Below are positions 1 to 48,216 of a DNA stretch of 50,825 bases, one piece after another. The stretch is from a phage, in the sequence record PZ452600.1; one strand, 5' to 3'. Under the pieces are notes generated by a model. It saw nothing but the letters and a program-made list of their open reading frames with translations. It did no database searches and was not told the origin of the DNA. A program made the translations under genes and the position numbers. The stretch's first letter is position 1, and the number at the start of each line of letters is the position of its first letter.

Positions 1-1569
1 ATGATCATATGGGAAGATTTGACGGCGGCGCAAAAGCGAGCCATTAAAGAAATCAGTGAGCATTCATTCGAAAAGATGATCAGAATCTGGTTTCAGTTAT
101 TGCAGGGGCAAAAATTCCAGAGCAACTGGCATTTTAGCTTATTGTGCAGTGAGGTAGAGAAGATCATCAATGGAGAGTCGCAGAATGTGATTTTCAACAT
201 TACGCCAGGTAGCGGTAAGACTGAGATTTTCTCGATCCACATGTCACCCTACGCGTCATTGAAAAGTCGTAAGGTGAGAAACCTTAACCTTTCGTTTAGT
301 GATGGACTTGTCCAGCAAAACAGCAACAGGATAAAGGAGATTATCGGTTCTCCTGAGTGGCAAGAGCTATGGCCAGGAAAACTGGCAAAGGCGAGCGCAA
401 AAGATCTCATAGTTACGGATGGCGGCAAGGTTAAATTGCAAGTTAACTCACGTTCTATTGGCGGACAGGTAACAGGTTTGCGTGGCGGCTATATGGATGA
501 TGGTTTTACTGGTATGCTGGTTCTGGACGATCCAGACAAGCCTGATGATATGCTTTCTAAGGTCAAGCGTGAGGCGATCCACATGAGGTTAAAAAACACA
601 GTGCGTTCTCGTCGAATGAAAGACACCACGCCAATTGTTATGGTGCAACAGCGACTACACGTTAATGATTCCACCTGGTTCATGCTTAATGGCGGGATGG
701 GCGGTATTGAGTTTAAAGTTGTGAGCATTCCTGCGCTGGTTACGAAAGAATACCGCGAAACGCTTCCTGATTGGTTGAAGCCTGAATTTGATCGTGATGT
801 GTTGTCAAGTAAGCCAGTGATGATAGATGGAGTTGCTCATTATTCATTTTGGCCTGCAAAGGAAAGCGCGGAGGAATTGCTTGCATTGCGCAATGCAGAT
901 CCTTACACGTTCGCCAGCCAATACCAACAACAACCCATCGCGCTTGGCGGCAACGTGTTTAAAACAGAGTGGTTCCAGTATTACGGCAGCGGCGAAAAAT
1001 GCGCACTTCCTAAACCGGATCGCTTTGAATACACATTTATTACTGGAGATACAGCACAGAAGGCCGGAGAGCTTAACGACTATTCAGTTTTTTGTTATTG
1101 GGGGATGTATAAAAATCGCGTTTACTTCATTGATGGCATTCGCGGCAAGTGGGAAGCGCCAGATCTTGAATTAAATTTTATTGCCTTCGTTAATCAGTGC
1201 TGGAAGCGCAATAAGGAGTGTGGCAGCTTGCGACGTATTCACATTGAGGATAAGGCCAGCGGCACGGGTTTGATTCAGGGGGCCAAAAAGAAGATCCCGA
1301 TTGATATAAATCCCGTTCAGCGAAGCAATGACAAGGTAACGCGAGCAATGGACGCCGCGCCAGTAATGAGGGCAGGACGTGTGGCACTGCCAGAAAGTCA
1401 TCCCATGTTACCTGAGATACTGGCAGAGGTTGCAGCGTTCACTTTTGACGATTCTCATCCCCATGATGATATTGTCGATAATATAGTTGATGCTGTTAAC
1501 GTCGAAATGAACTTGGCAGATGATCCGGTAGCAAGGATGAAAAAGCTGGCTGGTCTACGCAATAAATAG
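1..1569 (+). CDS. terL: terminase large subunit
   Basis: 522-aa ORF starting at window position 1; Walker A-like NITPGSGKTE near N-terminus; followed by portal gene; small terminase ORF abuts it across the window ends. Confidence 0.85.
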   Translation: MIIWEDLTAAQKRAIKEISEHSFEKMIRIWFQLLQGQKFQSNWHFSLLCSEVEKIINGESQNVIFNITPGSGKTEIFSIHMSPYASLKSRKVRNLNLSFSDGLVQQNSNRIKEIIGSPEWQELWPGKLAKASAKDLIVTDGGKVKLQVNSRSIGGQVTGLRGGYMDDGFTGMLVLDDPDKPDDMLSKVKREAIHMRLKNTVRSRRMKDTTPIVMVQQRLHVNDSTWFMLNGGMGGIEFKVVSIPALVTKEYRETLPDWLKPEFDRDVLSSKPVMIDGVAHYSFWPAKESAEELLALRNADPYTFASQYQQQPIALGGNVFKTEWFQYYGSGEKCALPKPDRFEYTFITGDTAQKAGELNDYSVFCYWGMYKNRVYFIDGIRGKWEAPDLELNFIAFVNQCWKRNKECGSLRRIHIEDKASGTGLIQGAKKKIPIDINPVQRSNDKVTRAMDAAPVMRAGRVALPESHPMLPEILAEVAAFTFDDSHPHDDIVDNIVDAVNVEMNLADDPVARMKKLAGLRNK

Positions 1570-1597
1570 CACTAATTGCTAAAAAGTTATATAATCA

Positions 1598-1625
1598 AGG
1601 CTGGATTTTTCCAGCCTTTTTTATT
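1598..1625 (+). terminator. intrinsic terminator between terL and portal gene
   Basis: AAGGCTGG-loop-CCAGCCTT followed by TTTTTTAT. Confidence 0.6.
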
Positions 1626-4825: not shown

Positions 4826-5335
4826 ATGGCTAAAATTGGAGCAAGTTATTTTGACACTATGGCGCGTGCGCTTCCTGGTCAGGTATCCGACACGTCAGCA
4901 TATAACATCGACGGCGCTTGCGTTCTTGACAAGGAAGACGGCATCCCAATCCTGGTTGGTGTGGCTGTTAAGCTAAAAGGCGTTGACTCAATGGGTAACA
5001 AGCTGATCGACTCCATTTCCGCTGGCGGTGATGTTCCTTATGGCGTTGGCATCCGTTCTCACTTTCAAACAACGGCTGATAATGGTCGAATGGTTTATGA
5101 GGTTGGCGGCGGAATCAACGTTATGACAGAGGGCCGCGTTTGGATGATTGGCGATGATTCAGATAAGGCCAAAAAGCCATCGTATCGTGAGCCTGTAAAA
5201 ATTGATGAAAACACTGGCAAGGTAAAAAGTGGTGGCGCTATCAATACCAACTGGATTTACACGGGAGATAAAACCACATTTGGAACTGGCGAAGATGTGT
5301 TGACTTTGTTTGAAGTTCAGGTCTTCCCAAGCTAA
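4826..5335 (+). CDS. capsid-associated protein (decoration-like), paralog 1
   Basis: GGAG RBS; starts MAK; paralogous to the next ORF (YNIDGACV / GVGIRSHFQTTADNG...GINVMTEGRVWM). Confidence 0.4.
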   Translation: MAKIGASYFDTMARALPGQVSDTSAYNIDGACVLDKEDGIPILVGVAVKLKGVDSMGNKLIDSISAGGDVPYGVGIRSHFQTTADNGRMVYEVGGGINVMTEGRVWMIGDDSDKAKKPSYREPVKIDENTGKVKSGGAINTNWIYTGDKTTFGTGEDVLTLFEVQVFPS

Positions 5336-5340
5336 AATTA

Positions 5341-5367
5341 AGGCGCTCGCTTGAGCGCCTTTTTTAT
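5341..5367 (+). terminator. intrinsic terminator
   Basis: AGGCGCTCGCTTGAGCGCCT + T6. Confidence 0.65.
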
Positions 5368-6168: not shown

Positions 6169-6194
6169 CTGATAGCATAAAAAAACATTGCACG

Positions 6195-6212
6195 TTTAAC
6201 AAAAAGTGCTAT
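6195..6212 (+). promoter_or_regulatory. inverted box upstream of major capsid gene
   Basis: TTTAACAAAAAGTGCTAT; contains extended -10-like TGcTATCAT; followed by hairpin 6219-6238. Confidence 0.4.
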
Positions 6213-6218
6213 CATCTA

Positions 6219-6245
6219 GGCCGTTACATTTAACGGCCTTTTTTA
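6219..6245 (+). terminator. hairpin + T-run directly upstream of capsid RBS (terminator or 5' stabilising stem-loop)
   Basis: GGCCGTTA-CATT-TAACGGCC + T6. Confidence 0.55.
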
Positions 6246-6258
6246 TGGAGGAAGCAAA

Positions 6259-7230
6259 ATGGCTAAAAAATACGATGAATTAGATGCTACCATTGTAGCA
6301 AATCATTTACAGGTTCAGGGCGTTAAGGGTGATGCTTCTGATATGGGTATTTGGACCGCTCAAGAGCTACACAAGATCCGTTCAACGGCATACGAGAAAG
6401 AGTATCCGGCAGGTTCCGCACTTCGCGTATTCCCTGTAACAAACGAGCTTTCTGATACTGATAAGACTTTTGAGTATCAGACTTTTGATAAGGTTGGCTA
6501 CGCGAAAATTATCGCCGACTACACCGACGATCTGCCGACTGTGGACGCGCTGATGACTTCTGAGTTTGGCAAAGTGTTCCGCCTGGGTAACGCTTATCTG
6601 ATCTCCATTGATGAGATTAAAGCAGGTCAGCGAACTGGCAAGAGCCTGTCAACTCGCAAGGCTAACGCCGCGCAAAATGCACATGATCAGCTGATTAACT
6701 TCCTGGTGTTCAAAGGTTCCAAGCCTCATAAGATCGTTTCCGTTTTCGATCACCCTAACCTTACGAAAATTGTTTCTAAAGGATGGATGAGCCAGGATGG
6801 AAACACCAAGTTCCCTGATGTGGCAAGCGATGAACTGGAGGCTGCAATCGAGACTATCGAGGAAGTAACCAAAGGTCAGCACCGCGCGACTAACATCCTG
6901 ATCCCGCCGTCCATGCGTAAAGTCTTGACGGTTCGAATGGAAAATACCACTGAAAGTTATCTTGAATACTTCCAGAAGCAAAACGGCGGCATCACTATCG
7001 ACTCTATCGCAGAGCTTGAGGATATTGACGGCAAAGGTACGAAAGGTTGCTTGGTTTACGAAAAAGATCCAATGAACATGAGCATTGAGATTCCAGAAGC
7101 GTTTAATATGCTTCCGGCGCAGCCAAAAGACCTTCACTTCAAGGTTCCTTGCACTTCCAAGTGTACTGGCCTTACAATTTATCGTCCGTTTACGATGGTG
7201 CTTATTACTGGCTTGAAAAAGTCAGATTAA
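6259..7230 (+). CDS. major capsid protein
   Basis: 323-aa ORF with strong GGAGGA RBS, flanked by intrinsic terminators on both sides; position after scaffold/decoration genes. Confidence 0.65.
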   Translation: MAKKYDELDATIVANHLQVQGVKGDASDMGIWTAQELHKIRSTAYEKEYPAGSALRVFPVTNELSDTDKTFEYQTFDKVGYAKIIADYTDDLPTVDALMTSEFGKVFRLGNAYLISIDEIKAGQRTGKSLSTRKANAAQNAHDQLINFLVFKGSKPHKIVSVFDHPNLTKIVSKGWMSQDGNTKFPDVASDELEAAIETIEEVTKGQHRATNILIPPSMRKVLTVRMENTTESYLEYFQKQNGGITIDSIAELEDIDGKGTKGCLVYEKDPMNMSIEIPEAFNMLPAQPKDLHFKVPCTSKCTGLTIYRPFTMVLITGLKKSD

Positions 7231-7241
7231 TTAGATAACAT

Positions 7242-7270
7242 GGGGAGCCTTAAGGGTTCCCCTTTTTTTA
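7242..7270 (+). terminator. intrinsic terminator after major capsid gene
   Basis: GGGGAGCC-TTAAG-GGTTCCCC + T7. Confidence 0.7.
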
Positions 7271-9880: not shown

Positions 9881-9885
9881 AACAA

Positions 9886-9907
9886 GGGGCGTTGCGCCCC
9901 TTTTTTC
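9886..9907 (+). terminator. intrinsic terminator after major tail gene
   Basis: GGGGCG-TTG-CGCCCC + T6. Confidence 0.7.
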
Positions 9908-9946
9908 ATTCCTGTAAAATCAATCTATCAAATAAATCAATTTCAC

Positions 9947-9965
9947 TTTTAACAAAAAGTGCTAC
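9947..9965 (+). promoter_or_regulatory. inverted box abutting RBS of tail chaperone gene
   Basis: TTTTAACAAAAAGTGCTAC immediately 5' of AAGGAG and ATG 9980. Confidence 0.4.
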
Positions 9966-10297: not shown

Positions 10298-10614
10298 AGC
10301 GGGCGGTTTACCTGTTTTACCTCAAGCCGCCAACTGACGCACAATTAGAGGCCGTCGGCCTATCCCGTTCAGACTACGAAGGGGAGGATCCGCCGGAGGT
10401 AATTTTTGATGAATCAATGTTTCAATCTTGGGATCTGTTTTGCGCTATGCAGACGCAATGGAGATCGACTAGCGGCAGTGTGTATGGGTTCGACTATAAC
10501 GTTTTGCCTATGCTTTTTGACATTTACAAGATTGAGGATCGGGAGATGGCGCTAAATGATTTGCGCATCATGGAACAAAAGGCGCTAGAAATGATTCATT
10601 CAAACAAAACATAA
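9980..10614 (+). CDS. tail assembly chaperone G-T fusion (programmed -1 frameshift product)
   Basis: -1 frame is open from the slippery site into ORF 10417-10614 with no stop; the downstream ORF has no RBS of its own. Confidence 0.7.
10288..10294 (+). promoter_or_regulatory. -1 programmed ribosomal frameshift slippery heptamer (A_AAA_AAC)
   Basis: Zero-frame codons gtA AAA AAC followed by TAA; -1 frame open to 10614. Confidence 0.7.
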
Positions 10615-10634
10615 GCGCCGCGAGGCGCTTTTTT
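10615..10634 (+). terminator. intrinsic terminator after G-T
   Basis: GCGCC-GCGA-GGCGC + T6. Confidence 0.6.
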
Positions 10635-15826: not shown

Positions 15827-15850
15827 ACCCGCCTTGCGCGGGTTTTTTTG
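15827..15850 (+). terminator. intrinsic terminator before J-like gene
   Basis: CCCGC-CTTGC-GCGGG + T7. Confidence 0.65.
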
Positions 15851-15898
15851 TGCATTTATAATGTGCAAACCAAGAAACAGCACAAAAGGTTAAAAGTC

Positions 15899-18800
15899 AT
15901 GGCTAAATATATGATAAGCGGCAGTAAGGGCGGAAGCAAAAAGCCATACGTGCCAAAAGAGATGGAAGATAACCTGATCTCGATAAACAAGATTAAAGTT
16001 TTGCTGGCTGTATCTGATGGAGAGTGCGATCCAGATTTCACGTTGCGTGATCTTTATCTTGATGATGTTCCGGTTATTGCCAGCGATGGCACTGTTAACT
16101 ATGAGGGGGTAACGGCTGAATATAGACCAGGCACACAGACGCAAGATTACATCCAGGGGTTTACTGACACATCAAGCGAGGTGACAGTTTCGCGAGACAT
16201 TACAACAGACAATCCCTATATTATCTCTGTGACAAACAAAAATCTTTCTGCAATAAGAATCAAGATTCTGATGCCAGTTGGCATAAAACAGGAGGATAAC
16301 GGCGATCTTGTTGGCGTAAGGGTTGAGTATGCCGTAGATATGGCTATTGATGGCGGTTCTTATAGCGAGGTTATGAGAGATGTAATTGACGGCAAGACAA
16401 GATCAGGATACGACCGCAGCAGAAGGATTGATCTTCCTAAGTTTGATGAGCGCGTTTTAATCCGAGTAAAGCGACTGACTCCAGACAGCACATCTTCAAA
16501 GGTGACTGATAAAATCAAGCTGCAAAGTTACGCTGAGGTTGTTGATGCAAAATTCCGTTATCCTCTGACTGGCCTTGTATTCGTAGAATTTGACAGCGAA
16601 TTGTTTCCTACGCAAATCCCTAACATTTCTATAAAAAAGAAATGGAAGATTATTAATGTGCCAAGCAACTATGATCCAATATCAAGAGAATATCACGGGT
16701 CATGGGATGGGACTTTTAAAAAAGCGTGGTCAAATAATCCCGCTTGGGTTCTTTATGATCTGGTGACAAATCAGCGTTATGGACTTGATCAGCGAGAGTT
16801 AGGAATACAGATCGACAAGTGGAGCTTATACGAGGCGGGCGTTTACTGTGATCAGAAAGTTCCAGACGGTAAGGGAGGTACAGAGCCTCGCTACCTATGC
16901 GATGTGGTGATTCAGAATCAAGTTGAGGCTTATCAGCTAATCCGTGACATTTGCTCAATCTTTCGCGGAATGAGTTTTTGGAATGGTGAGAGCTTATCAA
17001 TCGTGATTGATAAGCCACGCGATCCATCATACGTGTTTACTAATGAAAACGTCATCAACGGTGATTTTCAGTACACAACCGCAAGCGAAAAAAGCATGTA
17101 CACGCAGTGTAACGTGACGTTTGACGACGAACAAAACATGTATCAGCAGGACGTAGAGGGGGTTTTTGATACTGAGGCGGCATTACGATTTGGATACAAT
17201 CCAACAAGCATTACAGCGATCGGGTGCACACGCAGGAGCGAAGCGAATCGTCGCGGTCGGTGGGTTTTGAAAACAAACCTTAGAAGCACTACTGTAAACT
17301 TTGCTACCGGACTAGAGGGGATGATTCCATCAATAGGTGATGTTATTGCTATCGCTGATAATTTTCAGAGTAGCAACCTAACGTTAAACCTATCGGGCCG
17401 AGTAATGGAAGTTTCAGGATTGCAGGTTTTCGTTCCGTTTAAGGTTGATGCTCGCCCTGGTGATTTTATTATCATCAACAAGCCGGACGGCAAGCCAGTT
17501 AAGCGCACGATCTCAAAGGTTAGCGCAGACGGAAAAACCATTGAGTTAAATATTGGATTTGGTTTTGATGTTAAGCCTGATACTGTTTTTGCGATTGACC
17601 GTGCTGACCTTGCGTTGCAGCAATACGTTGTGACAACTATCAGCAAGGGTGATGACGAAAACGAGTTTACCTATTCAATCACGGCTGTGGAGTACGATCC
17701 GAACAAATACGACGAGATTGATTATGGCGTAAACATTGATGACAGGCCGACGTCAATTGTTCAGCCTGACGTGATGGCAGCGCCTGAGAACGTTAAGATC
17801 TCATCTTATTCTCGCGTCGTGCAGGGTGTTAGCGTTGAGACTATGGTTGTTTCATGGGATAAGGTTCCTTACGCATCGCTTTATGAAATGCAGTGGCGAA
17901 AAGGTGATGGTAACTGGCTGAATACGCCGCAGACCGCTAACAAAGAGATAGAGGTAGAAGGGATTTATTCAGGCAACTACCAAGTAAGGGTGAGATCCGT
18001 TTCTGCAAGCGGTAACACTTCCCCGTGGTCAAAGATTGCAACCGCAACCCTGACAGGTAAAGTTGGCGAGCCAGGAGCGCCGATTAATCTTACAGCTTCT
18101 GATAATGAAGTTTTTGGCATTCGTGTCAAATGGGGTATGCCGGAAGGATCAGGCGATACGGCTTACATTGAGCTTCACCAATCGCCAGACGGAACGGTTG
18201 AAAACTCAAGTCTGCTTACGCTGATTCCATATCCTCAATATGAGTATTGGCATAGCACGTTACCAGCGGGGCAAGTTGTATGGTATAGAATCCGCAGCGT
18301 TGACAGAATAGGCAACGTTTCCAGCTGGACTGACTTTGTTCGCGGTATGGCGTCAGATGATGTTGAATCTGTTTTGGGCGACATTCTGGACAAGATTTTT
18401 GATACAGAAGCTGGTCAAGAAATCAAAGAGAACGCCATAGACAGCGCCAATAAAATCAAAGACCAGGCACAATCAATCATACAGAACGCGTTGGCAAATG
18501 ATGCAGATGTGAAGTGGACGCGAGTGCAAAACGGAAAGCGTAAGGCTGAATATGGTTATGCTCTTGAGCTTATCGCCAATGAAACAGAAGCGCGCGTAAC
18601 TCAAATCGAAGAGTTAAGGGCATCAATTGATGGCGAGATAACATCAAGCATCAAGACAGTGCAGGAGGCAATTGCCACTGAATCAGAGACGCGAGCGACT
18701 CAAATTCAGCAGCTTGATTCTAAATTCACAAAAGAAATCGACGGCGTGCGCAAGGATACTTCTGCAAGCATTAGCGATGTAAGGCAGACAATCACTAACG

Positions 18801-20700: not shown

Positions 20701-20743
20701 ACTATACACGATCCGACAAGCGGCGTTTAGCAAAAAGTGCTAC
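20701..20743 (-). promoter_or_regulatory. box cassette upstream of Cor/Llp-like lipoprotein gene
   Basis: minus-strand GTAGCACTTTTTGCTAAAC (20743-20725), N18, TATAGT (20706-20701); RBS and ATG 20675 follow. Confidence 0.5.
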
Positions 20744-26457: not shown

Positions 26458-26476
26458 AAATAGCACTTTTTGCTAA
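26458..26476 (-). promoter_or_regulatory. inverted box abutting RBS of lateral tail fibre gene
   Basis: minus-strand TTAGCAAAAAGTGCTATTT immediately 5' of AGGAGG and ATG 26442. Confidence 0.4.
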
Positions 26477-26507
26477 TGACAATGCAGATAATAGCATTTT
26501 CAAGTGC

Positions 26508-26532
26508 AAAAAAAAACCCCGCATAAGCGGGG
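26508..26532 (-). terminator. intrinsic terminator after primase gene (minus strand)
   Basis: minus strand: CCCCGCTTATGCGGGG followed by U9. Confidence 0.65.
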
Positions 26533-26548
26533 CAATACTAGCTGAGTT

Positions 26549-27533: not shown

Positions 27534-28010
27534 TTAGCTATTTGTGCTGTTATCACCTTTGTAGAATCGTCCGCCTGGTTCGTAGTCTGAATTTTTGACT
27601 ACGCGCAACATCTCGTATTTGTCGCAACGGGTAGTAAGAGGCTTACCGTTAGAATCAAACCGCAGATCTGGACGACAAAATGATGCGCGGTATCCTTTGC
27701 ATCCATTATATTTGTAGTCGTTATGCACCTTTTGTGCTCCAGCGGCTGAAATCATACCACGCTTTCGCCATTGGTTAACGACTTGCTGAGATACGCGTAG
27801 ACGTCGAGCCATAGCAGGAACACCGCCATAATACTCGATCAGAATATCCAAGCGAGATTTCAGGCTTGCTTTTACCTCATCTCGCAGGATAAGAAATCCG
27901 GTTCGGTGTTTTCGTGGCTTTTTGTCTTTACCTCGTCGCGTTCCGTTGTTACCGTTAATAGTGCGCTTGTCGATCTCACCCGTAGACACCGCAATTCGTG
28001 CATCTTTCAT
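27534..28010 (-). CDS. helix-turn-helix DNA-binding protein
   Basis: HTH-like segment VPAMARRLRVSQQVVNQWRKRGMIS; GAGGTGA RBS; divergent from helicase. Confidence 0.55.
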   Translation of the reverse strand: MKDARIAVSTGEIDKRTINGNNGTRRGKDKKPRKHRTGFLILRDEVKASLKSRLDILIEYYGGVPAMARRLRVSQQVVNQWRKRGMISAAGAQKVHNDYKYNGCKGYRASFCRPDLRFDSNGKPLTTRCDKYEMLRVVKNSDYEPGGRFYKGDNSTNS

Positions 28011-28021
28011 CTAGTCACCTC

Positions 28022-28065
28022 ATAGCATTTTTTGTTAAAACAGTTTATTGTAATGAGTCTATTAT
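28022..28065 (+). promoter_or_regulatory. box cassette (putative phage promoter) upstream of helicase
   Basis: ATAGCATTTTTTGTTAAAAC 28022-28041, N18, TATTAT 28060-28065; in divergent intergenic region. Confidence 0.5.
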
Positions 28066-28097
28066 ATACTCCAAATGGCATTTTTTAAAGGTTTAAG

Positions 28098-30095: not shown

Positions 30096-30514
30096 TGGCT
30101 ATAACTGATAAAGGAGATTATCTTGAGTTTTACGAAAGAGATCCAACCGACACGAGAAAGGAAGTTAATCACCAGATAGATAGCTTTCAGTGGTTGACTT
30201 ATGCTCATCCTTATTTGCTAGCGTGGCATACGGTAAACGAGAATGAGAAGTCGAAAGTAACGGCGATGATTGATCAGCAGTCCGGCTTGGTTAAGGGGGT
30301 AAGCGATTTCATCATCCTGATTGGTTCAAACGGAAAATACCCCTTTGCAGCGATTGAGATCAAACGAGTTAATAAATCAGGCAAGGGGAAAGCATCACCA
30401 GTCAGCGATGAACAAAAGGCTTTTTTGCGTCGCGTTCGCAGCTTAGGAGGATTCGCTGCGGTCGCCTACGGATTTAATCAGTTTAAGTTAGCTATTGAAT
30501 ACATGCTTAAATAG
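30095..30514 (+). CDS. VRR-NUC-like nuclease
   Basis: TAATG overlap with helicase stop; 139 aa with ...FIILIGSNGKYPFAAIEIKR... suggestive of a PD-(D/E)XK/VRR-NUC core. Confidence 0.5.
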   Translation: MAITDKGDYLEFYERDPTDTRKEVNHQIDSFQWLTYAHPYLLAWHTVNENEKSKVTAMIDQQSGLVKGVSDFIILIGSNGKYPFAAIEIKRVNKSGKGKASPVSDEQKAFLRRVRSLGGFAAVAYGFNQFKLAIEYMLK

Positions 30515-30554
30515 CACTTTTTGTTAAAACTGGCGCGATGGATTGCGCCATAAT
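30511..30554 (+). promoter_or_regulatory. box cassette upstream of Dam-like gene
   Basis: box 30511-30530 overlapping upstream stop TAG; hairpin TGGCGC/GCGCCA; CATAAT 30549-30554. Confidence 0.5.
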
Positions 30555-31324: not shown

Positions 31325-31582
31325 ATGAAAAAAGAGAGAAGCGTTTATTTAAATGAAACTGGCGAGTGGTTGTTATTTCGCGCTATGGTGTGCGATGCAC
31401 TTGATAAAAACCCTAACGTGAAAAAGATGATTGATTGCGATCCGTGGGAATTTTCAAGCGCATTAGATATGAGCTTTGATGAGACAAGAAAACTCCCTCT
31501 TGAAAAATGGCACGAACAAATCAGAAATGATATGCAAGAGTTTGTAGATTCGTGGAATTTTCAGAACGGAATGATCCACTAA
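31325..31582 (+). CDS. hypothetical protein
   Basis: GGAG RBS; 85 aa; stop abuts a box cassette. Confidence 0.5.
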   Translation: MKKERSVYLNETGEWLLFRAMVCDALDKNPNVKKMIDCDPWEFSSALDMSFDETRKLPLEKWHEQIRNDMQEFVDSWNFQNGMIH

Positions 31583-31641
31583 TAGCACTTTTTGTTAAAA
31601 CGCCCGGCATTTTGTCGGGCATAATTATTTCATCGAAACGA
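31582..31641 (+). promoter_or_regulatory. box cassette
   Basis: box 31582-31601; hairpin GCCCGGC/GTCGGGC; CATAAT 31620-31625; second box CATCGAAACGA 31631-31641. Confidence 0.5.
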
Positions 31642-34524: not shown

Positions 34525-34541
34525 TGCCTCCTTTATTTTTA
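34511..34541. terminator. bidirectional terminator after lysis cassette
   Basis: AGGAGGC-TTAAT-GCCTCCT flanked by A- and T-runs; spanin stop codon lies in the loop. Confidence 0.6.
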
Positions 34542-34763
34542 TGCGTCGGGCCACATATGAGTTTCGTTTGTTGGCTTGTTCGATTCGTCGTACTGCCTTA
34601 CTTCAATGCTGCAAGTGTCGCCATACATTTCTGCAATCTTGCGCTCATTTTCAACCGCCGATTGCTCACTCCATCCAAAACCTCTGTCATAAATTGTCGG
34701 GATTTCAGCAGAAGATCCGTTGTCATGATTATATACGCGAACTACTAAAAACTTGCTGGACAT
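34539..34763 (-). CDS. hypothetical protein
   Basis: 74 aa; preceded by box cassette 34784-34843 and AAAGG RBS. Confidence 0.5.
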   Translation of the reverse strand: MSSKFLVVRVYNHDNGSSAEIPTIYDRGFGWSEQSAVENERKIAEMYGDTCSIEVRQYDESNKPTNETHMWPDA

Positions 34764-34783
34764 AATTTTACCTTTTGGTTGTT

Positions 34784-34843
34784 TCGTTTCGATGAAACAA
34801 ATATACCCGACAATAGGTCGGGCGTTTTAACAAAAAATGCTAT
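34784..34843 (-). promoter_or_regulatory. box cassette
   Basis: minus-strand ATAGCATTTTTTGTTAAAAC, hairpin GCCCGAC/GTCGGGT, TATATT, CATCGAAACGA (34794-34784); ATG 34763. Confidence 0.5.
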
Positions 34844-36961: not shown

Positions 36962-37005
36962 ATTTTAACGGCCCAATACTACCCCGTTTTGTCAAAAAGT
37001 GCTAT
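36962..37005 (-). promoter_or_regulatory. box cassette (variant box)
   Basis: minus-strand ATAGCACTTTTTGACAAAAC, N18, TAAAAT inside hairpin GGGCCGT/ACGGCCC; ATG 36933. Confidence 0.45.
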
Positions 37006-37625: not shown

Positions 37626-37679
37626 GTTCGATGTGATTATGCCAGGTTTTTACACCTGGCTTTTAACAAAAAGTGCTAT
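37626..37679 (-). promoter_or_regulatory. box cassette
   Basis: minus-strand box (37679-37660), hairpin GCCAGGTG/CACCTGGC, CATAAT (37641-37636), CATCGAAC (37633-37626); ATG 37606. Confidence 0.5.
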
Positions 37680-39530: not shown

Positions 39531-39597
39531 CCTCGTTTGTTGTCGATGGGTGTAATATACCATTCAGGCGCACATCGCTTTTAACAAAAAGTGCTAT
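39531..39597 (-). promoter_or_regulatory. box cassette
   Basis: minus-strand box (39597-39578), TATATT (39559-39554), CATCGACAACAAACGAGG (39548-39531); ATG 39522. Confidence 0.5.
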
Positions 39598-40034: not shown

Positions 40035-40103
40035 CCTCGCATTCGTTGTCGATGCGTGTAATGTACAGGAATACGAGGATTGAGTTTTAACAAAAAGTGC
40101 TAT
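40035..40103 (-). promoter_or_regulatory. box cassette
   Basis: minus-strand box (40103-40084), TACATT (40065-40060), CATCGACAACGAATGCGAGG (40054-40035); ATG 40026. Confidence 0.5.
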
Positions 40104-41346: not shown

Positions 41347-41408
41347 GTTCGTTTCGATGTGTGTAATGTACCCGATCAGGCGGCCTGAGTTTTAACAAAA
41401 AGTGCTAT
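41347..41408 (-). promoter_or_regulatory. box cassette heading the leftward early block
   Basis: minus-strand box (41408-41389), hairpin CAGGCCGCCTGATCGGG, TACATT (41370-41365), CATCGAAACGAAC (41359-41347); ATG 41329. Confidence 0.5.
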
Positions 41409-41437: not shown

Positions 41438-41530
41438 AATAATCAAAAGTAATCATTCGTAATCAAATCGCGTCAAAATGATGATTGCCTTTGCAAATTT
41501 GATGAGAAAAGTAATCACGTTTAATCATTG
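41438..41530. repeat. iteron-like array of five (G)TAATCA repeats
   Basis: aaTAATCAaaa, gTAATCAttc, gTAATCAaat (10-11 bp phasing), then gTAATCAcgt, tTAATCAttg 40 nt later; non-coding. Confidence 0.5.
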
Positions 41531-42487: not shown

Positions 42488-42756
42488 AAAAGGCATTAAT
42501 CAGCGTTTTGGCGGCAATGGCATTCCTGACCGGATGCAAAGAAGATGGCGCGCATGTTGGCAATGTGCAGATGGCTAACCCTGGCGATGACTACAGCGTA
42601 AGGGAGCTATTCACCGCTGACGGTTGCACCGTTTACCGATTCTATGACGATCGCACTGTTTACTTCACCAACTGCAAGGGAACGACTAGCTGGGAAGTGT
42701 CGAAAAGCAACGGCAAAGGCACAACAACAGAATATATGACCGTCGAGACAAAATAG
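42484..42756 (+). CDS. early lipoprotein
   Basis: ATGA overlap; signal peptide with lipobox LTGC (MKKALISVLAAMAFLTGCKED). Confidence 0.6.
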   Translation: MKKALISVLAAMAFLTGCKEDGAHVGNVQMANPGDDYSVRELFTADGCTVYRFYDDRTVYFTNCKGTTSWEVSKSNGKGTTTEYMTVETK

Positions 42757-42812
42757 CACTTTTTGTTAAAACGCCAGGTGCAAAGCCTGGCATAATAGCC
42801 TCATCGAAACGA
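42753..42812 (+). promoter_or_regulatory. box cassette
   Basis: box 42753-42772 contains upstream stop TAG; hairpin GCCAGG/CCTGGC; CATAAT 42791-42796; CATCGAAACGA 42802-42812. Confidence 0.5.
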
Positions 42813-43215: not shown

Positions 43216-43259
43216 ATAGCACTTTTTGTTAAAACTCGAAAACGATAACCAGGCATAAT
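43216..43259 (+). promoter_or_regulatory. box cassette
   Basis: box 43216-43235; N18; CATAAT 43254-43259; stem-loop GGGCGGCACGGCGTCGCCC in leader. Confidence 0.5.
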
Positions 43260-44117: not shown

Positions 44118-44160
44118 ATAGCACGAATTGTTAAAACTCAAATGTGGGGCCAGGTATAAT
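44118..44160 (+). promoter_or_regulatory. box cassette (variant box)
   Basis: ATAGCACGAATTGTTAAAAC 44118-44137; hairpin GTGGGGCC/GGCCCCAC with TATAAT 44155-44160 in loop. Confidence 0.5.
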
Positions 44161-45413: not shown

Positions 45414-45571
45414 CTTGGTTGCTTTTAATCTTTGTCACAAGTTACAACTCCGCAGCTATTGAGTCGCAGGAGTTCCACGGCGAATCAAGATGCCAGGAAG
45501 CGCGAAAGCAAGTTGTTCTCCACATGTCAGATAGTGGGAAGGATGTAACAGCGTTATGCGTTCGTAAATAG
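45410..45571 (+). CDS. small secreted/membrane protein (53 aa)
   Basis: Not in ORF track; ATGA overlap with HAD stop; hydrophobic N-terminus MTWLLLIFVTSYNSAAIES; stop TAG embedded in box 45568-45588. Confidence 0.4.
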   Translation: MTWLLLIFVTSYNSAAIESQEFHGESRCQEARKQVVLHMSDSGKDVTALCVRK

Positions 45572-45612
45572 CACTTTTTGCAAAAAACAGATTAACGGGC
45601 TTGCGGTATAGT
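45568..45612 (+). promoter_or_regulatory. box cassette (variant box)
   Basis: ATAGCACTTTTTGCAAAAAAC 45568-45588; hairpin GGGCTT/AAGCCC with TATAGT 45607-45612 in loop. Confidence 0.45.
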
Positions 45613-46291: not shown

Positions 46292-46882
46292 ATGAAGCGA
46301 GACATTATCATCCTTAATGGGCCGCCAGGCTGCGGGAAGGACACTATTGCAGCTTACCTAACGGGCCATCGTTACCCTGCTGTCAAGGCGTCATTCAAAC
46401 AGCCGATGTTCGATATTGCTTTTTCTATGCTGGGCGTGTACCGATACGATGAATTTATGGACCTGTACAACGACCGAGAGCAAAAAGAAAAGCCTCAAGT
46501 TATCTTAGGAGGCAAGTCACCTCGACAATTCATGATCTGGATTAGTGAGGATGTAATGAAGCCAGTTTTTGGGGGTCACTATTTCGGGCGTCGCATGGTT
46601 GAAGAGATTCACGAGATGTACCGAGATTTAGCGGTTGTGATCAGCGATGGTGGATTCCCCGAAGAAATCAAGCCGCTTGTTAAGGCAGGGCATGAAGTGC
46701 ATATTTGCCGATTGCATCGCGACGGCTTCACGTTTGCTGGCGATTCGAGAGACTACATTGACCTGAGCGGTTATCACTATCGAATCCATCACTATGATTT
46801 CCACTTGCAGGAAGGTAAGCCGGAACTGGCTGTAAGCGAGATCGTCAATGCAGTCAAATGGAAGCACACACAGATTAAATAG
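46292..46882 (+). CDS. P-loop nucleotide/nucleoside kinase
   Basis: Walker A IIILNGPPGCGKDT at N-terminus; 196 aa. Confidence 0.65.
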   Translation: MKRDIIILNGPPGCGKDTIAAYLTGHRYPAVKASFKQPMFDIAFSMLGVYRYDEFMDLYNDREQKEKPQVILGGKSPRQFMIWISEDVMKPVFGGHYFGRRMVEEIHEMYRDLAVVISDGGFPEEIKPLVKAGHEVHICRLHRDGFTFAGDSRDYIDLSGYHYRIHHYDFHLQEGKPELAVSEIVNAVKWKHTQIK

Positions 46883-46922
46883 CACGAATTGCTAAACGCG
46901 GGGTTATCGGCCCCGCTATAAT
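46879..46922 (+). promoter_or_regulatory. box cassette (variant box)
   Basis: ATAGCACGAATTGCTAAAC 46879-46897; hairpin GCGGGG/CCCCGC; TATAAT 46917-46922. Confidence 0.5.
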
Positions 46923-47882: not shown

Positions 47883-48173
47883 ATGGCAAACAAAACTTAC
47901 CGCAAACTACTGGTTAACGCTTTTGAAAACATCGCGCAGTGTAACAAGTGGAACGACTCTAAACACTCGCCAATCACAATGAAGCGCGCCGGATTCAAAA
48001 ATGCTCGTTCATGGGCGCGAGCTTTCGCAGCTTGCTATATGCCGGATGGCGGACTAGGGGTGATGAACGATTTTTTGATCAACATGATAGAGGAAGCGGC
48101 GCGAGAGGATCGACCGCTGACACAGCGAGATTTTGACGACTTCGCGCGCGATGAGCTTTACTATCTGAGCTAA
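47883..48173 (+). CDS. hypothetical protein
   Basis: AAGGGG RBS; 96 aa; stop abuts box 48173-48192. Confidence 0.5.
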   Translation: MANKTYRKLLVNAFENIAQCNKWNDSKHSPITMKRAGFKNARSWARAFAACYMPDGGLGVMNDFLINMIEEAAREDRPLTQRDFDDFARDELYYLS

Positions 48174-48216
48174 TAGCACTTTTTGTTAAAACTTCCGCAA
48201 GGGCATTTGGTAAAGT
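48173..48216 (+). promoter_or_regulatory. box cassette
   Basis: box 48173-48192; hairpin AAGGGCA/TGCCCTT; TAAAGT 48211-48216; GCGAAAC box in leader. Confidence 0.45.

What the first reader, a model, noticed from the sequence alone, without database searches (positions are those of the whole stretch)
6195..6245. Same box in inverted orientation directly upstream of three late structural genes
TTAACAAAAAGTGCTA(T/C) lies immediately before the Shine-Dalgarno of the capsid gene (6195-6212, followed by hairpin 6219-6238 plus T-run), the tail chaperone gene (9947-9965) and the lateral tail fibre gene (minus strand 26476-26458). In this orientation the box has an extended -10-like TGnTAT(C/T)A, so it could be a late promoter whose transcript starts at the hairpin, giving capsid mRNA a 5' stabilising stem-loop. 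Alternatively one protein binds both orientations with opposite outcomes.
Basis: partly seen in the sequence, partly recalled or inferred. Interest (0 to 1): 0.55.

Follow-up and report, generated by a model that had tools for sequence, protein, structure and literature searches.

The report
Host marbox sites inside phage promoters
The repeated 17-base box of this T1-like phage matches the DNA site ("marbox") read by the host stress regulators MarA/SoxS/Rob: most copies sit where such sites switch promoters on, while the three flagged copies sit inside or just after late-gene promoters, where they should switch them off. This gives a testable answer to what this unexplained phage repeat does.

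Summary
The three copies exist as described, but they are 3 of about 21 in a near-complete T1-like phage (98% to phage tunus). The box is the unexplained 21-nt repeat published for phage TLS. It matches the E. coli marbox: 15 exact hits to GCAHWWWWTGYYAAA against about 0.1 expected. Sixteen copies have class II geometry: forward marbox, 18 bp, -10, no -35, centre near -41, the same as E. coli micF.

The flagged copies are exceptions. The capsid copy fills the 16-bp spacer of a sigma-70 promoter (TTGCAC, TGcTATCAT) conserved in every relative, as at MarA/SoxS-repressed pbpG. The fibre copy lies at about +1 to +20 of an extended -10 promoter. The chaperone copy belongs to a backward-facing class II module overlapping the tail promoter.

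So "late promoter" holds only for the capsid copy. The hairpin is a terminator. The predicted start lies inside its 5' arm, so it is not a 5' stabiliser. Binding and the direction of regulation are inferred, not shown.

The parts
6188..6193 (+). -35 hexamer TTGCAC of the capsid promoter
   Evidence: A TTGNNN hexamer is conserved 2 nt upstream of the box in all 45 distinct relative sequences (TTGCAC, TTGAAC, TTGACC, TTGACG), always with a 16-bp spacer. At 3/6 it is below the simple scanner's threshold in this window.
6193..6212 (-). It fills the spacer of the capsid promoter at about -30 to -11, in reverse orientation.
   Evidence: It matches AYnGCACnnWnnRYYAAAY and GCAHWWWWTGYYAAA exactly. It is present at this site in every lineage. 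It is listed as DR7 'neg' in TLS.
6207..6215 (+). Extended -10 TGcTATCAT of the capsid promoter (-10 is 6210-6215)
   Evidence: TG and TAnnnT are conserved in all relatives (TATCAT, TATATT, TATTAT, TATTCT). T at -7 occurs in 35/35 capsid-site copies.
6218..6244 (+). Intrinsic terminator (stem 6218-6239 plus T-run) ending the upstream head-gene unit. The predicted capsid start (C6222/G6223) lies inside its 5' arm.
   Evidence: The scanner calls it a terminator. The read-through RNA folds at -15.7 kcal/mol, z -3.95, and RNA from 6222 or 6223 loses the stem. Five of 9 pairs show compensatory changes. It is TLS T35.
9884..9906 (.). Bidirectional terminator after the major tail gene
   Evidence: It is flagged on both strands.
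9915..9920 (+). -10 TAAAAT of the tail chaperone/tape-measure promoter, just after the terminator
   Evidence: A -10-like hexamer lies here in all 72 relatives, with or without the box.
9922..9927 (-). -10 TAGATT of a backward-facing class II module, 18 bp from the marbox. Its predicted start is about 9915, reading into the terminator.
   Evidence: TAnnnT lies at this exact distance in 18/18 distinct box-bearing sequences, with diverged spacers.
9946..9965 (-). It sits at about +20 to +39 of the tail promoter and directly before the SD AAGGAG.
   Evidence: It is present in about 18 distinct lineage sequences and absent in many others.
26516..26533 (-). Terminator after the primase gene
26488..26496 (-). 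Extended -10 TGcTATTAT of the lateral tail-fibre promoter. The predicted start is about G26480.
   Evidence: TGn plus TATTAT, TATAAT, TAGAAT or TAAAAT is conserved 5-11 nt upstream of the box in nearly all of 28 distinct sequences. It is also kept in L082, which lacks the box.
26460..26479 (+). It sits at about +1 to +20 of the fibre promoter and directly before the SD.
   Evidence: No reverse -10 lies at the class II distance in 0/28 sequences.
28022..28041 (+). Marbox ATAGCATTTTTTGTTAAAAC. It is class II for the helicase gene (-10 TATTAT 28060-28065). It also sits at about +13 to +32 of the divergent regulator promoter, abutting the regulator's SD.
   Evidence: This arrangement is conserved in all lineages.
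28061..28089 (-). Canonical sigma-70 promoter of the regulator gene (TTTAAA-17-TATAAT)
   Evidence: It scores 10/12 in the scanner. It equals TLS P57, one of only three canonical promoters found there.
1566..1618 (+). Portal site: forward marbox 1566-1585, then 4 nt, then TATAAT 1590-1595, then terminator hairpin 1597-1618. The marbox overlaps the -35/spacer region (centre about -26).
   Evidence: TAYAAT and the hairpin are conserved in relatives.
15827..15901 (+). Tail-tip site: terminator 15827-15843, TATAAT 15857-15862, forward marbox 15877-15896 (contains the SD AAGG), ATG 15899.
   Evidence: It equals TLS T49 plus DR8.
20724..20743 (-). Class II marbox module (-10 TATAGT at 17 bp) driving minus-strand genes from 20675
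30511..30530 (+). Class II marbox module (CATAAT)
31582..31601 (+). Class II marbox module (CATAAT, leader CATCGAAACGAA)
34824..34843 (-). Class II marbox module (TATATT)
36986..37005 (-). Class II marbox module (TAAAAT), upstream of the DNA helicase gene
37660..37679 (-). Class II marbox module (CATAAT)
39578..39597 (-). Class II marbox module (TATATT)
40084..40103 (-). Class II marbox module (TACATT)
41389..41408 (-). Class II marbox module (TACATT)
42753..42772 (+). Class II marbox module (CATAAT)
43216..43235 (+). Class II marbox module (CATAAT)
44118..44137 (+). Class II marbox module, GAA-type (TATAAT)
45568..45587 (+). Class II marbox module (TATAGT at 19 bp)
46879..46898 (+). Class II marbox module, GAA-type (TATAAT)
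48173..48192 (+). Class II marbox module (TAAAGT)

Best explanation
The box is a marbox. A marbox is the asymmetric 20-bp site read as a monomer by the enterobacterial AraC-family regulators MarA, SoxS and Rob (RamA in Klebsiella and Salmonella).

Sixteen copies in this phage are the upstream element of class II marbox promoters. The layout is a forward marbox, 18 bp, a -10, no -35, and a site centre near -41. The host activator would stand in for the missing -35 and switch on the early and DNA-metabolism genes.

The three flagged copies are the same site placed where it cannot activate.
- A: it fills the 16-bp spacer (-30 to -11) of a genuine, conserved sigma-70 capsid promoter (TTGCAC, then TGcTATCAT).
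- C: it covers about +1 to +20 of the extended -10 promoter of the lateral tail-fibre gene.
- B: it lies at about +20 to +39 of the tail-chaperone promoter. It is also the activator site of a backward-facing class II promoter whose core overlaps that promoter.

While the factor is bound it should therefore hold these late promoters down. The mechanism would be occlusion at A and C, and promoter competition or roadblock at B. At the same time it drives the early ones, so one protein has opposite outcomes.

The hairpin after the capsid promoter is the terminator of the upstream unit. The capsid transcript is predicted to start inside its 5' arm and so escape it.

Shown here: the sequence match, the geometry and the conservation. 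Inferred: which protein binds, the direction of the effect at late sites, and all transcription start positions.
For: Sequence match.
- There are 15 exact hits to the ChIP-derived marbox GCAHWWWWTGYYAAA, against 0.036 expected by composition and 0.10 in dinucleotide shuffles. There are 23 hits against 1.06 expected at <=1 mismatch.
- The consensus sequences were verified in the literature.
- The positions that vary in the phage box are the degenerate marbox positions: Y2 is T or C, position 8-9 is free, W10 is always A or T, and Y14 is T (255) or C (240).
- Salmonella ChIP-bound sites include GCATTTTTTGCTAAA.

Geometry.
- 441 of 517 non-redundant box contexts across the family have a -10 at offset 20-22 from the 17-mer, and 368 are at exactly 21, which is 18 bp from the 20-mer.
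- An anchor that ignores the box (a -10 plus the leader) recovers the marbox at that distance.
- A CA start motif 7 nt after the -10 puts the site centre at about -40.5.
- E. coli micF, stated to be class II and solved with Rob or SoxS plus RNA polymerase, has the same layout: forward marbox, 18 bp, TAGAAT, centre -41.5.
- Class II promoters are defined as forward, centred -36 to -55, and lacking a -35.

The binding protein.
- No MarA/SoxS/Rob homologue is encoded in the window (best E 0.4).
- The box is invariant across the family, while the phage regulator's putative recognition helix varies.

Late sites.
- The 76 contexts without a class II -10 fall into only three positional classes: capsid, fibre and portal.
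- The capsid promoter is conserved in all relatives.
- At pbpG a marbox overlapping the promoter spacer gives repression by MarA/SoxS. At lpxC one marbox overlaps the core of P1 while acting as class II for P2.
- Site B has a reverse -10 at the class II distance in 18/18 distinct sequences.

Hairpin.
Against: - There are no binding, expression or start-site data for any T1-like phage in the searchable literature.
- MarA and SoxS are made only under stress. Rob is reported to be sequestered in inactive aggregates without an inducer. A virulent phage that depends on them for about 16 promoters therefore needs a source of active factor that I cannot name.
- The phage has its own conserved regulator with a Cro-type HTH. 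That regulator's gene always sits behind a box and has a canonical promoter. It could be the real binder.
- Repression at late sites is argued by analogy. At pbpG, purified MarA did not repress in vitro; only SoxS did.
- Three of about 8 predicted late promoters (5310, 7213, about 13723) carry no marbox.
- Site B's marbox is absent from many lineages, and one fibre relative (L082) lacks site C's. These copies are therefore dispensable modulators at best.
- The window's capsid -35 is only 3/6.
Confidence: 0.55

Rival explanations
1. A phage-encoded protein, most plausibly the conserved 158-aa regulator at 27534-28010, binds the box. It would act like lambda cI or phi29 p4: activator when centred near -41, repressor when overlapping a core promoter. 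Under this reading the resemblance to the marbox is convergence or mimicry.
For: - It is the only annotated transcription regulator in the genome.
- It has a Cro-type HTH.
- It is present directly behind a box in every lineage, including T1 and the most distant group.
- It has a canonical sigma-70 promoter, so it can be made before anything else.
- The box has a pseudo-dyad, TAGCA-N5-TG(C/T)TA.
Against: - The box matches the host marbox at every specified position, and its tolerated variation mirrors the marbox degeneracy.
- The geometry equals micF to the base pair.
- The protein's putative recognition helix varies (SQQVVNQW, SFQTIQQW, SNSLLTIW) while the box does not.
- With a phage-made factor the late promoters would be unrepressed at time zero, which gives the wrong temporal order.
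Confidence: 0.17
2. All three inverted copies are forward late promoters that use TGnTAT as an extended -10, and the capsid mRNA begins with a stabilising 5' stem-loop.
For: The capsid copy really is part of a conserved promoter. If the start were at G6219, the full stem (-12.6 kcal/mol) would sit at the 5' end.
Against: - Sites B and C have no conserved -35 and no T at -7. A start would fall in or after the SD.
- Real -10 elements lie upstream of the box at both sites.
- At the capsid site the stem starts 1-3 nt after the -10 in all lineages.
- A hairpin plus U6 would terminate the promoter's own transcript.
- The 55%-identity group has the promoter but no hairpin, and has a terminator upstream of the promoter instead.
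Confidence: 0.05
3. The late-site copies are functionless relics of duplicated or inverted promoter modules. The capsid promoter merely recruited one as a spacer plus -10.
For: The site B and site C copies are missing in some lineages. Modules appear to be mobile cassettes that abut neighbouring genes.
Against: - The capsid copy is kept in every lineage over 54-99% capsid identity, although promoter spacers are normally free to drift.
- Site B keeps a -10 at the class II distance in 18/18 sequences despite diverged spacers.
- Non-class-II copies occur only at three positional classes, all at late promoters.
Confidence: 0.1
4. No dedicated protein is involved. The box is an UP-element or -35-like sequence read by RNA polymerase itself (one of the suggestions in the TLS paper), or it is an L5-type stoperator.
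For: The TLS authors proposed these options. The box contains a T-tract and a TTGnTA sequence.
Against: - The invariant positions are G/C-containing (GCAC, TG), while the central triplet is free (TTT, GAA, TAA). This is the opposite of an A/T-tract UP element.
- TTGnTA lies 22 bp from the -10, too far for sigma region 4.
- The fixed distance to a -10 is not a stoperator property.
Confidence: 0.05
5. The host regulator Lrp binds the box (half-sites YAGHA ... TDCTR).
For: Box variants score 12-13 of 15 against yAGhAwATTwTdCTr. That consensus was verified, and the scores are.
Against: The consensus is too degenerate. Ninety-two positions in the window reach >=12/15 (P about 1e-3 per position), and only about 30 of them are boxes. 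The commonest variant, TTGTTAA, breaks the consensus C.
Confidence: 0.03

Closest known systems
Class II MarA/SoxS/Rob-dependent promoters of E. coli and Salmonella (micF; lpxC P2, lpxL P1, rfaY P1)
   Same: The consensus is the same, and so is the forward orientation, with GCAC distal and YYAAA proximal. The 18-bp gap to the -10 matches, as does the absence of a -35. The site centre is near -41.
   Different: The promoters are in a virulent phage, at about 16 sites per 51 kb, and the sites are nearly identical to one another rather than degenerate. Many spacers double as terminator hairpins. Binding has not been tested.
Marboxes that overlap core promoters: pbpG (in the spacer, repressed by MarA/SoxS in vivo and by SoxS in vitro) and lpxC (one marbox over the P1 core that is also class II for P2)
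   Same: The capsid copy lies in the spacer like pbpG. Site B and the regulator/helicase site use one marbox for two overlapping promoters like lpxC.
   Different: At the phage sites the effect is only predicted. RE1 of the reversed marbox also supplies the TG and TAT of the capsid extended -10.
The 21-nt direct repeats of phage TLS (aaATAGCACnnnTTGnTAAAA; also seen in T1, Rtp and Rogue1)
   Same: It is the same element. TLS DR7, DR8 and DR11 are the capsid, tail-tip and regulator/helicase copies.
   Different: The repeats were published as having unknown function and as lying 'in the direction of transcription'. The inverted capsid copy appears only in a supplementary table. No link to marboxes, to a fixed -10 distance or to late promoters was made.
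Dual activator/repressor phage switches (lambda cI at OR2 for PRM and PR; phi29 p4 at A3 and A2b/A2c). Cited from general knowledge.
   Same: One DNA-bound protein activates a promoter lacking a good -35 from about -42 and represses overlapping or nearby promoters.
   Different: Those proteins are phage-encoded and dimeric or multimeric. Here the site is that of a monomeric host AraC-family factor.
Mycobacteriophage L5 stoperators (suggested by the TLS authors)
   Same: Many copies of an asymmetric site, oriented relative to transcription, lie between genes.
   Different: Stoperators are not at a fixed distance from a -10 and act only negatively. Here 85% of copies sit exactly 18 bp (±1) from a -10.

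Membership tests
Marbox (MarA/SoxS/Rob/RamA binding site) | Match to the asymmetric consensus AYnGCACnnWnnRYYAAAY or GCAHWWWWTGYYAAA | tested here: met
   There are 15 exact hits against 0.036-0.10 expected, and 23 against 1.06 at <=1 mismatch. All three flagged copies match: A exactly, B exactly on the 15-mer, C with 1 mismatch.
Marbox (MarA/SoxS/Rob/RamA binding site) | Variation among sites is confined to the degenerate positions | tested here: met
   Y2 is T or C, W10 is always A or T, Y14 is T or C at about 1:1, and positions 8-9 are free. An unbiased anchor gives the same picture.
Marbox (MarA/SoxS/Rob/RamA binding site) | Bound by MarA, SoxS or Rob | not testable with these tools
   This needs EMSA, footprinting or ChIP. 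The only indirect evidence is that no phage homologue of these proteins exists.
Class II marbox promoter | Forward orientation, overlapping the -35 position, centred between -36 and -55 (about 18 bp from the -10), with no recognisable -35 | tested here: met
   This is met for 16 window copies and 441/517 family contexts. The geometry is identical to micF. It is NOT met for the three flagged copies read in their gene direction. Copy B meets it on the opposite strand.
Marbox-repressed promoter (core-overlapping marbox, either orientation, centred -35 to +25) | The marbox overlaps the core promoter or the initial transcribed region | tested here: met
   Copy A has its centre at about -20.5 in the spacer. 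Copy C has its centre at about +10. The portal copy has its centre at about -26. All positions are relative to predicted starts. Copy B's centre, at about +30, is outside this range.
Marbox-repressed promoter (core-overlapping marbox, either orientation, centred -35 to +25) | Transcription falls when the factor is present | not testable with these tools
   This needs reporter or in vitro transcription assays.
   This is met for the capsid copy only: 45 distinct sequences, a -35 at 16 bp, and -7 T in 35/35 copies.
   The hexamers are TACAAG, TATAAG, TATCAA and so on at B, and TATTTA at C. There is no conserved -35, and the start would lie in or after the SD.
Intrinsic terminator | A G+C-rich stem-loop followed by a T-run, with the structure conserved by compensatory change | tested here: met
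   Hairpin 6218-6239 plus T6, z -3.95, 5/9 pairs compensatory.
5'-terminal stabilising stem-loop | The transcript begins at or within a few nt before the base of the stem | tested here: inconclusive
   By canonical -10-to-start spacing, the start falls 3-5 nt inside the 5' arm in all lineages, and RNA from 6222 or 6223 has no hairpin. No start-site data exist.
TLS/T1 21-nt direct repeat family | Sequence aaATAGCACnnnTTGnTAAAA in the intergenic regions of Drexlerviridae | tested here: met
Stoperator | Position independent of promoters and inside transcribed regions, acting on elongation | tested here: not met
   The element lies at a fixed 18-bp distance from a -10 in 85% of contexts.

The most novel reading that the evidence does not exclude
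T1-like phages run their whole early-to-late programme on a host stress regulator. A MarA/SoxS/Rob-type protein (RamA in other enterics), already present or induced by infection, switches on about 16 promoters that lack a -35. The same protein sits on the portal, capsid, tail, tail-tip, fibre and regulator promoters.

Late genes, and the phage's own Cro-like regulator, would turn on only when the factor is lost. Possible causes of loss are proteolysis after host shut-off, titration by about 21 sites on each replicating genome, or inactivation by the phage regulator, which would form a toggle switch.

This would tie the success of a classic virulent phage to the host's antibiotic and oxidative stress state. 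It would also explain why single-gene host screens missed it, because the three paralogues are redundant.
Probability: 0.35. Interest if true: 0.9.

Novelty: new member of a known kind. Interest (0 to 1): 0.74.

Why it matters
[quoted passage not shown] The marbox reading turns that question into simple experiments.

If the reading is right, a whole family of virulent enterobacterial phages (T1, TLS, Rtp, tunus and the Klebsiella, Salmonella and Citrobacter relatives) has wired its early promoters to host MarA/SoxS/Rob/RamA, and several late promoters as well. These are the regulators that drive multidrug resistance. Several consequences would follow.
- Phage growth would depend on the host's stress state, for example exposure to salicylate, paraquat, bile or dipyridyl, or marR and ramR resistance mutations.
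- That dependence bears on phage-antibiotic combinations, notably for TolC-dependent relatives whose receptor is itself mar/sox/rob-regulated.
- It would be a clean example of one host factor acting as both the early activator and the late repressor of a lytic phage.
- It corrects annotation practice. Canonical -35/-10 scans find only three promoters in these genomes, because most promoters are class II.

The recurrent layout in which a promoter abuts a terminator and the start lies inside the stem is a compact insulator design that may be useful in synthetic biology.

Tried and rejected
- An antisense early-type promoter at the capsid copy. The window has TATCAG at the right distance, but relatives do not.
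- Sigma-54, IHF, CRP, FNR, ArcA and Fis readings of the box. I rejected these by eye because the key positions or the spacing do not fit.
- Lrp. It scored 12-13/15, but the consensus is at background level.
- A 22-bp-spaced -35 (TTGnTA) read by sigma-70. It is too far from the -10.
- Co-variation between the capsid spacer and each genome's own box. The box is the same in all groups, so there is nothing to co-vary. The 55% group's capsid copy is simply a slightly degraded GAA-type box.
- Using box-less distant relatives (L218 and L219) as a host-range control. Their nearest relatives still infect Klebsiella and Salmonella, so the control is uninformative.
- Literature searches. Exact-string searches for the box found nothing relevant. 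Searches for T1 transcription or start-site data found nothing. Searches linking marboxes or MarA/SoxS/Rob to phage promoters found nothing relevant.
- The paper on rob autorepression through a spacer marbox (Schneiders and Levy 2006, recalled from memory) is not held. I use pbpG as the documented analogue. I note only that the rob promoter contains GCAAAAAATGCTATTAT.
- Scripts that needed repair. The first site-B script used a wrong reading frame and was redone. Two regex-based scripts returned nothing and were replaced: and the portal part.
Full report
**What the window is.** The window is a near-complete genome of a T1-like siphovirus (Drexlerviridae, Warwickvirus). It is 98% identical to Escherichia phage tunus and collinear with record OR912983. 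The gene layout is as follows.
- Late structural genes run rightward from 1 to about 19.5 kb.
- A leftward block holds the regulator, primase, lateral tail fibre and two small genes (28010 down to 23484).
- The rest is early and DNA-metabolism genes on both strands.

**Checking the observation.**
- The three copies are present at 6196-6212 (+), 9949-9965 (+) and 26476-26460 (-). Each reads TTAAC->GCTAT toward the gene that follows.
- The box is not rare. It occurs 19 times at <=3 mismatches against 0.58 expected, and 20 times at <=4.
- I aligned all copies in the opposite orientation, ATAGCACTTTTTGTTAA. In that orientation, 16 of them lie right after the stop codon of the upstream gene. They are followed by a variable spacer of 20-22 nt, a -10-like hexamer (CATAAT, TATATT, TACATT, TATAAT), a conserved leader (about CATCGAAACGA), an SD and a start codon.
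- These 16 copies are therefore the upstream element of a promoter family that points the other way.

**What was already known.**
- The 2024 re-annotation of phage TLS describes the same element as a 21-nt direct repeat, aaATAGCACnnnTTGnTAAAA. [quoted passage not shown]
- The authors suggest stoperators, enhancer sites or UP elements, and list its function among the open questions.
- Their supplementary table contains the capsid-site copy (DR7, 'neg' strand, immediately followed by terminator T35) without comment.
- The same table shows that conventional scanning found only three canonical sigma-70 promoters in TLS.

**The family-wide picture.** I fetched 79 loci around the capsid gene (54-99% identity), 10 usable loci around the fibre gene, 32 around the regulator and 80 around the adjacent helicase, including T1 itself.
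- Of 517 non-redundant box contexts, 441 have a -10 (at least 4/6, with A2 and T6) at offset 20-22 from the 17-mer, and 368 are at exactly 21.
- An anchor that ignores the box (a -10 plus the leader only, 208 modules) recovers ATAGCACTTTTTG(T/C)TAAAA at that distance.
- A CA step lies 7 nt after the -10 and marks the likely start. This puts the element at -50 to -31, with no -35 hexamer.
- The 76 contexts without such a -10 fall into just three positional classes: the capsid site, the tail-fibre site and a portal site.

**What the box is.**
- Two leads from memory were tested. The Lrp consensus was verified in the literature, but it is so degenerate that 92 positions in the window score as well as the boxes do. 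I dropped it.
- The marbox consensus was verified in two forms: AYnGCACnnWnnRYYAAAY and the ChIP-derived GCAHWWWWTGYYAAA.
- The window has 15 exact matches to the latter, against 0.036 expected by composition and 0.10 in dinucleotide shuffles. It has 23 against 1.06 at one mismatch.
- The positions at which the phage boxes vary are the degenerate marbox positions: Y2, N8-9, W10 and Y14.
- By the published rules, class II marbox promoters have a forward marbox overlapping the -35 position, centred between -36 and -55, and lack a recognisable -35.
[quoted passage not shown] Its marbox ACAGCACTGAATGTCAAAAC is forward, exactly 18 bp from its -10, and centred at -41.5 from the annotated 5' end. The phage modules have the same 20-mer, 18 bp, -10 layout.
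- The marRAB promoter's own reverse-strand class I marbox was also recovered by the same scan.
- No MarA/SoxS/Rob-like protein is encoded in the window (best E 0.4).

**Site A, the capsid copy.**
- In every relative the box is preceded at 2 nt by TTGCAC, TTGAAC, TTGACC or TTGACG and by an A-tract.
- It ends in TGnTAnnnT: TATCAT, TATATT, TATTAT or TATTCT.
- T at -7 occurs in 35/35 capsid-site copies against 94/482 other copies.
- This is a conserved sigma-70 promoter: -35 at 6188-6193, a 16-bp spacer, TG at 6207-6208 and -10 at 6210-6215. The reversed marbox (6193-6212) is its spacer, at about -30 to -11.
- The documented analogue is pbpG, whose marbox overlaps the promoter spacer and which MarA and SoxS repress in vivo and SoxS in vitro.
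- The early-type -10 on the opposite strand (TATCAG) is not conserved.

**The hairpin.**
- Hairpin 6218-6239 plus T6 scores as an intrinsic terminator. It folds at -15.7 kcal/mol in read-through RNA (z -3.95) and has compensatory changes at 5 of 9 pairs.
- In all hairpin-bearing lineages the stem begins 1-3 nt after the -10, and a C-G step lies at positions 6-8. A canonical start is therefore 3-5 nt inside the 5' arm.
- RNA starting at 6222 or 6223 no longer forms the hairpin.
- The 55%-identity group has no hairpin here. It has a terminator upstream of the promoter instead.
- The same layout, with a promoter ending 0-3 nt before a terminator stem, recurs at 1590-1618, 5310-5361 and 7213-7262. 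It is conserved after the capsid gene in relatives.
- I read the hairpin as the terminator of the upstream unit, which the capsid transcript escapes, and not as a 5' stabiliser.

**Site B, the chaperone copy.**
- Only some lineages carry the box here: 18 distinct sequences.
- There is no conserved -35, and the would-be -10 lacks T at -7.
- All relatives, with or without the box, have a -10-like hexamer just after the major-tail terminator. In the window it is TAAAAT at 9915-9920.
- All 18 box-bearing sequences also have TAnnnT on the opposite strand at exactly the class II distance, with diverged spacers. In the window it is TAGATT, the reverse complement of 9922-9927.
- Site B is therefore a class II module facing backwards. 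Its core overlaps the tail promoter, and its transcript would run about 35-40 nt into the bidirectional terminator.
- The regulator/helicase intergenic region has the same divergent, overlapping layout. There the second promoter serves a real gene.

**Site C, the fibre copy.**
- In 28 distinct sequences there is never a reverse -10.
- A TG-extended -10 (TGcTATTAT at 26496-26488 in the window) lies 5-11 nt upstream of the box on the gene strand, right after the primase terminator.
- The marbox then covers about +1 to +20.

**Two further late-unit copies.**
- Portal site: a forward marbox at 1566-1585, only 4 nt from TATAAT.
- Tail-tip site: terminator, then TATAAT at 15857-15862, then a forward marbox at 15877-15896 that contains the SD.
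- Five of about eight predicted late promoters therefore carry a marbox in a non-activating position, and three do not.

**Mechanism, and how sure I am.** The sequence identity to the marbox, the class II geometry and the conservation of each late-site arrangement are shown. Three things are inferred.
- A host MarA/SoxS/Rob-type factor binds the box.
- That factor activates the 16 modules.
- It depresses the capsid, fibre, tail and portal promoters.

The main difficulties are as follows.
- MarA and SoxS are stress-induced, and Rob is reported as sequestered without an inducer.
- The phage has its own conserved regulator with a Cro-type HTH. Its gene always sits behind a box and has a canonical promoter.
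- That regulator's putative recognition helix varies while the box does not. A phage-made factor would also leave the late promoters unrepressed at time zero. I therefore rank it second.

**Novelty.** The repeat itself is published, but its function is not. I found no paper linking marboxes or MarA/SoxS/Rob to phage promoters. As a molecular object this is a new member of a known kind: marbox promoters, both activating and occluding. The biological implication is the interesting and testable part. It is that a virulent phage family is wired to the host's multidrug and oxidative stress regulators.

Noticed in passing
window 1590-1618, 5310-5361, 6188-6244, 7213-7262: There are four late-region boundaries where a sigma-70-type promoter ends 0-3 nt before a terminator hairpin. 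The predicted start therefore lies inside the 5' arm. Read-through RNA can terminate, but the promoter's own RNA cannot. Other boundaries have the terminator first and then the -10: 9884, 13692, 15827 and 26533(-).
   Followed up: partly
window 41440-41465 and 41512-41527: TAATCA occurs five times with exact 10-bp phasing (41440, 41450, 41460; 41512, 41522). The array lies in the region between the divergent early operons and looks like an iteron or operator array. It could be a site for the phage regulator or an origin element.
   Followed up: no
window 34539-34765: Two 74-aa ORFs overlap on opposite strands. The public tunus annotation calls the plus-strand ORF. However, a complete class II marbox module (34843-34824, then TATATT, the leader CATCGAAACGAAAC, an SD and an ATG) points at the minus-strand ORF 34763-34539. 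This suggests the annotated strand is wrong.
   Followed up: no
window 31599-31625, 34800-34826, 37635-37662, 42770-42796 and relatives (for example L170, L186): The 18-bp spacers of many class II modules are G+C-rich hairpins, often with GAAA loops. They are followed by the T-rich -10 and leader. The spacer probably doubles as an intrinsic terminator for the upstream gene.
   Followed up: no
window 27534-28010 (-): The regulator family (56-100% identity across T1, TLS and the distant group) has three conserved parts: an invariant N-terminal basic arm INGNNGTRRGKDKKPRKR, a Cro-type HTH with a variable recognition helix, and a conserved C-terminal motif FCRPDLRFDxNGK. Its canonical promoter (28089-28061) has the marbox at about +13 to +32, so the gene falls into the same control class as the late genes.
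   Followed up: partly
L223 (E. coli rob upstream region): The rob promoter contains ACAGCAAAAAATGCTATTAT. This closely resembles the reversed-marbox-plus-extended -10 of the capsid site (AACAAAAAGTGCTATCAT) and the TGCTATTAT of the fibre promoter. From memory, rob is repressed through a marbox in its spacer, but that paper was not available.
   Followed up: partly
window 10613-10630: A bidirectional terminator-like hairpin lies between the tail-chaperone frameshift ORFs and the tape-measure gene. It is followed at once by an SD, with no room for a promoter. It may be an attenuator that sets the chaperone-to-tape-measure ratio.
   Followed up: no
L218, L219 (IMG/VR contigs, 46% helicase identity): These more distant relatives gave no match to the relaxed box pattern in the 22 kb examined (I did not run the marbox consensus scan on them). 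Their nearest relatives (Klebsiella phage BUCT541, Salmonella phage ST46) still infect enterics. Marbox wiring is therefore a trait of the T1/TLS/tunus/Webervirus-type clade and not of all relatives.
   Followed up: partly
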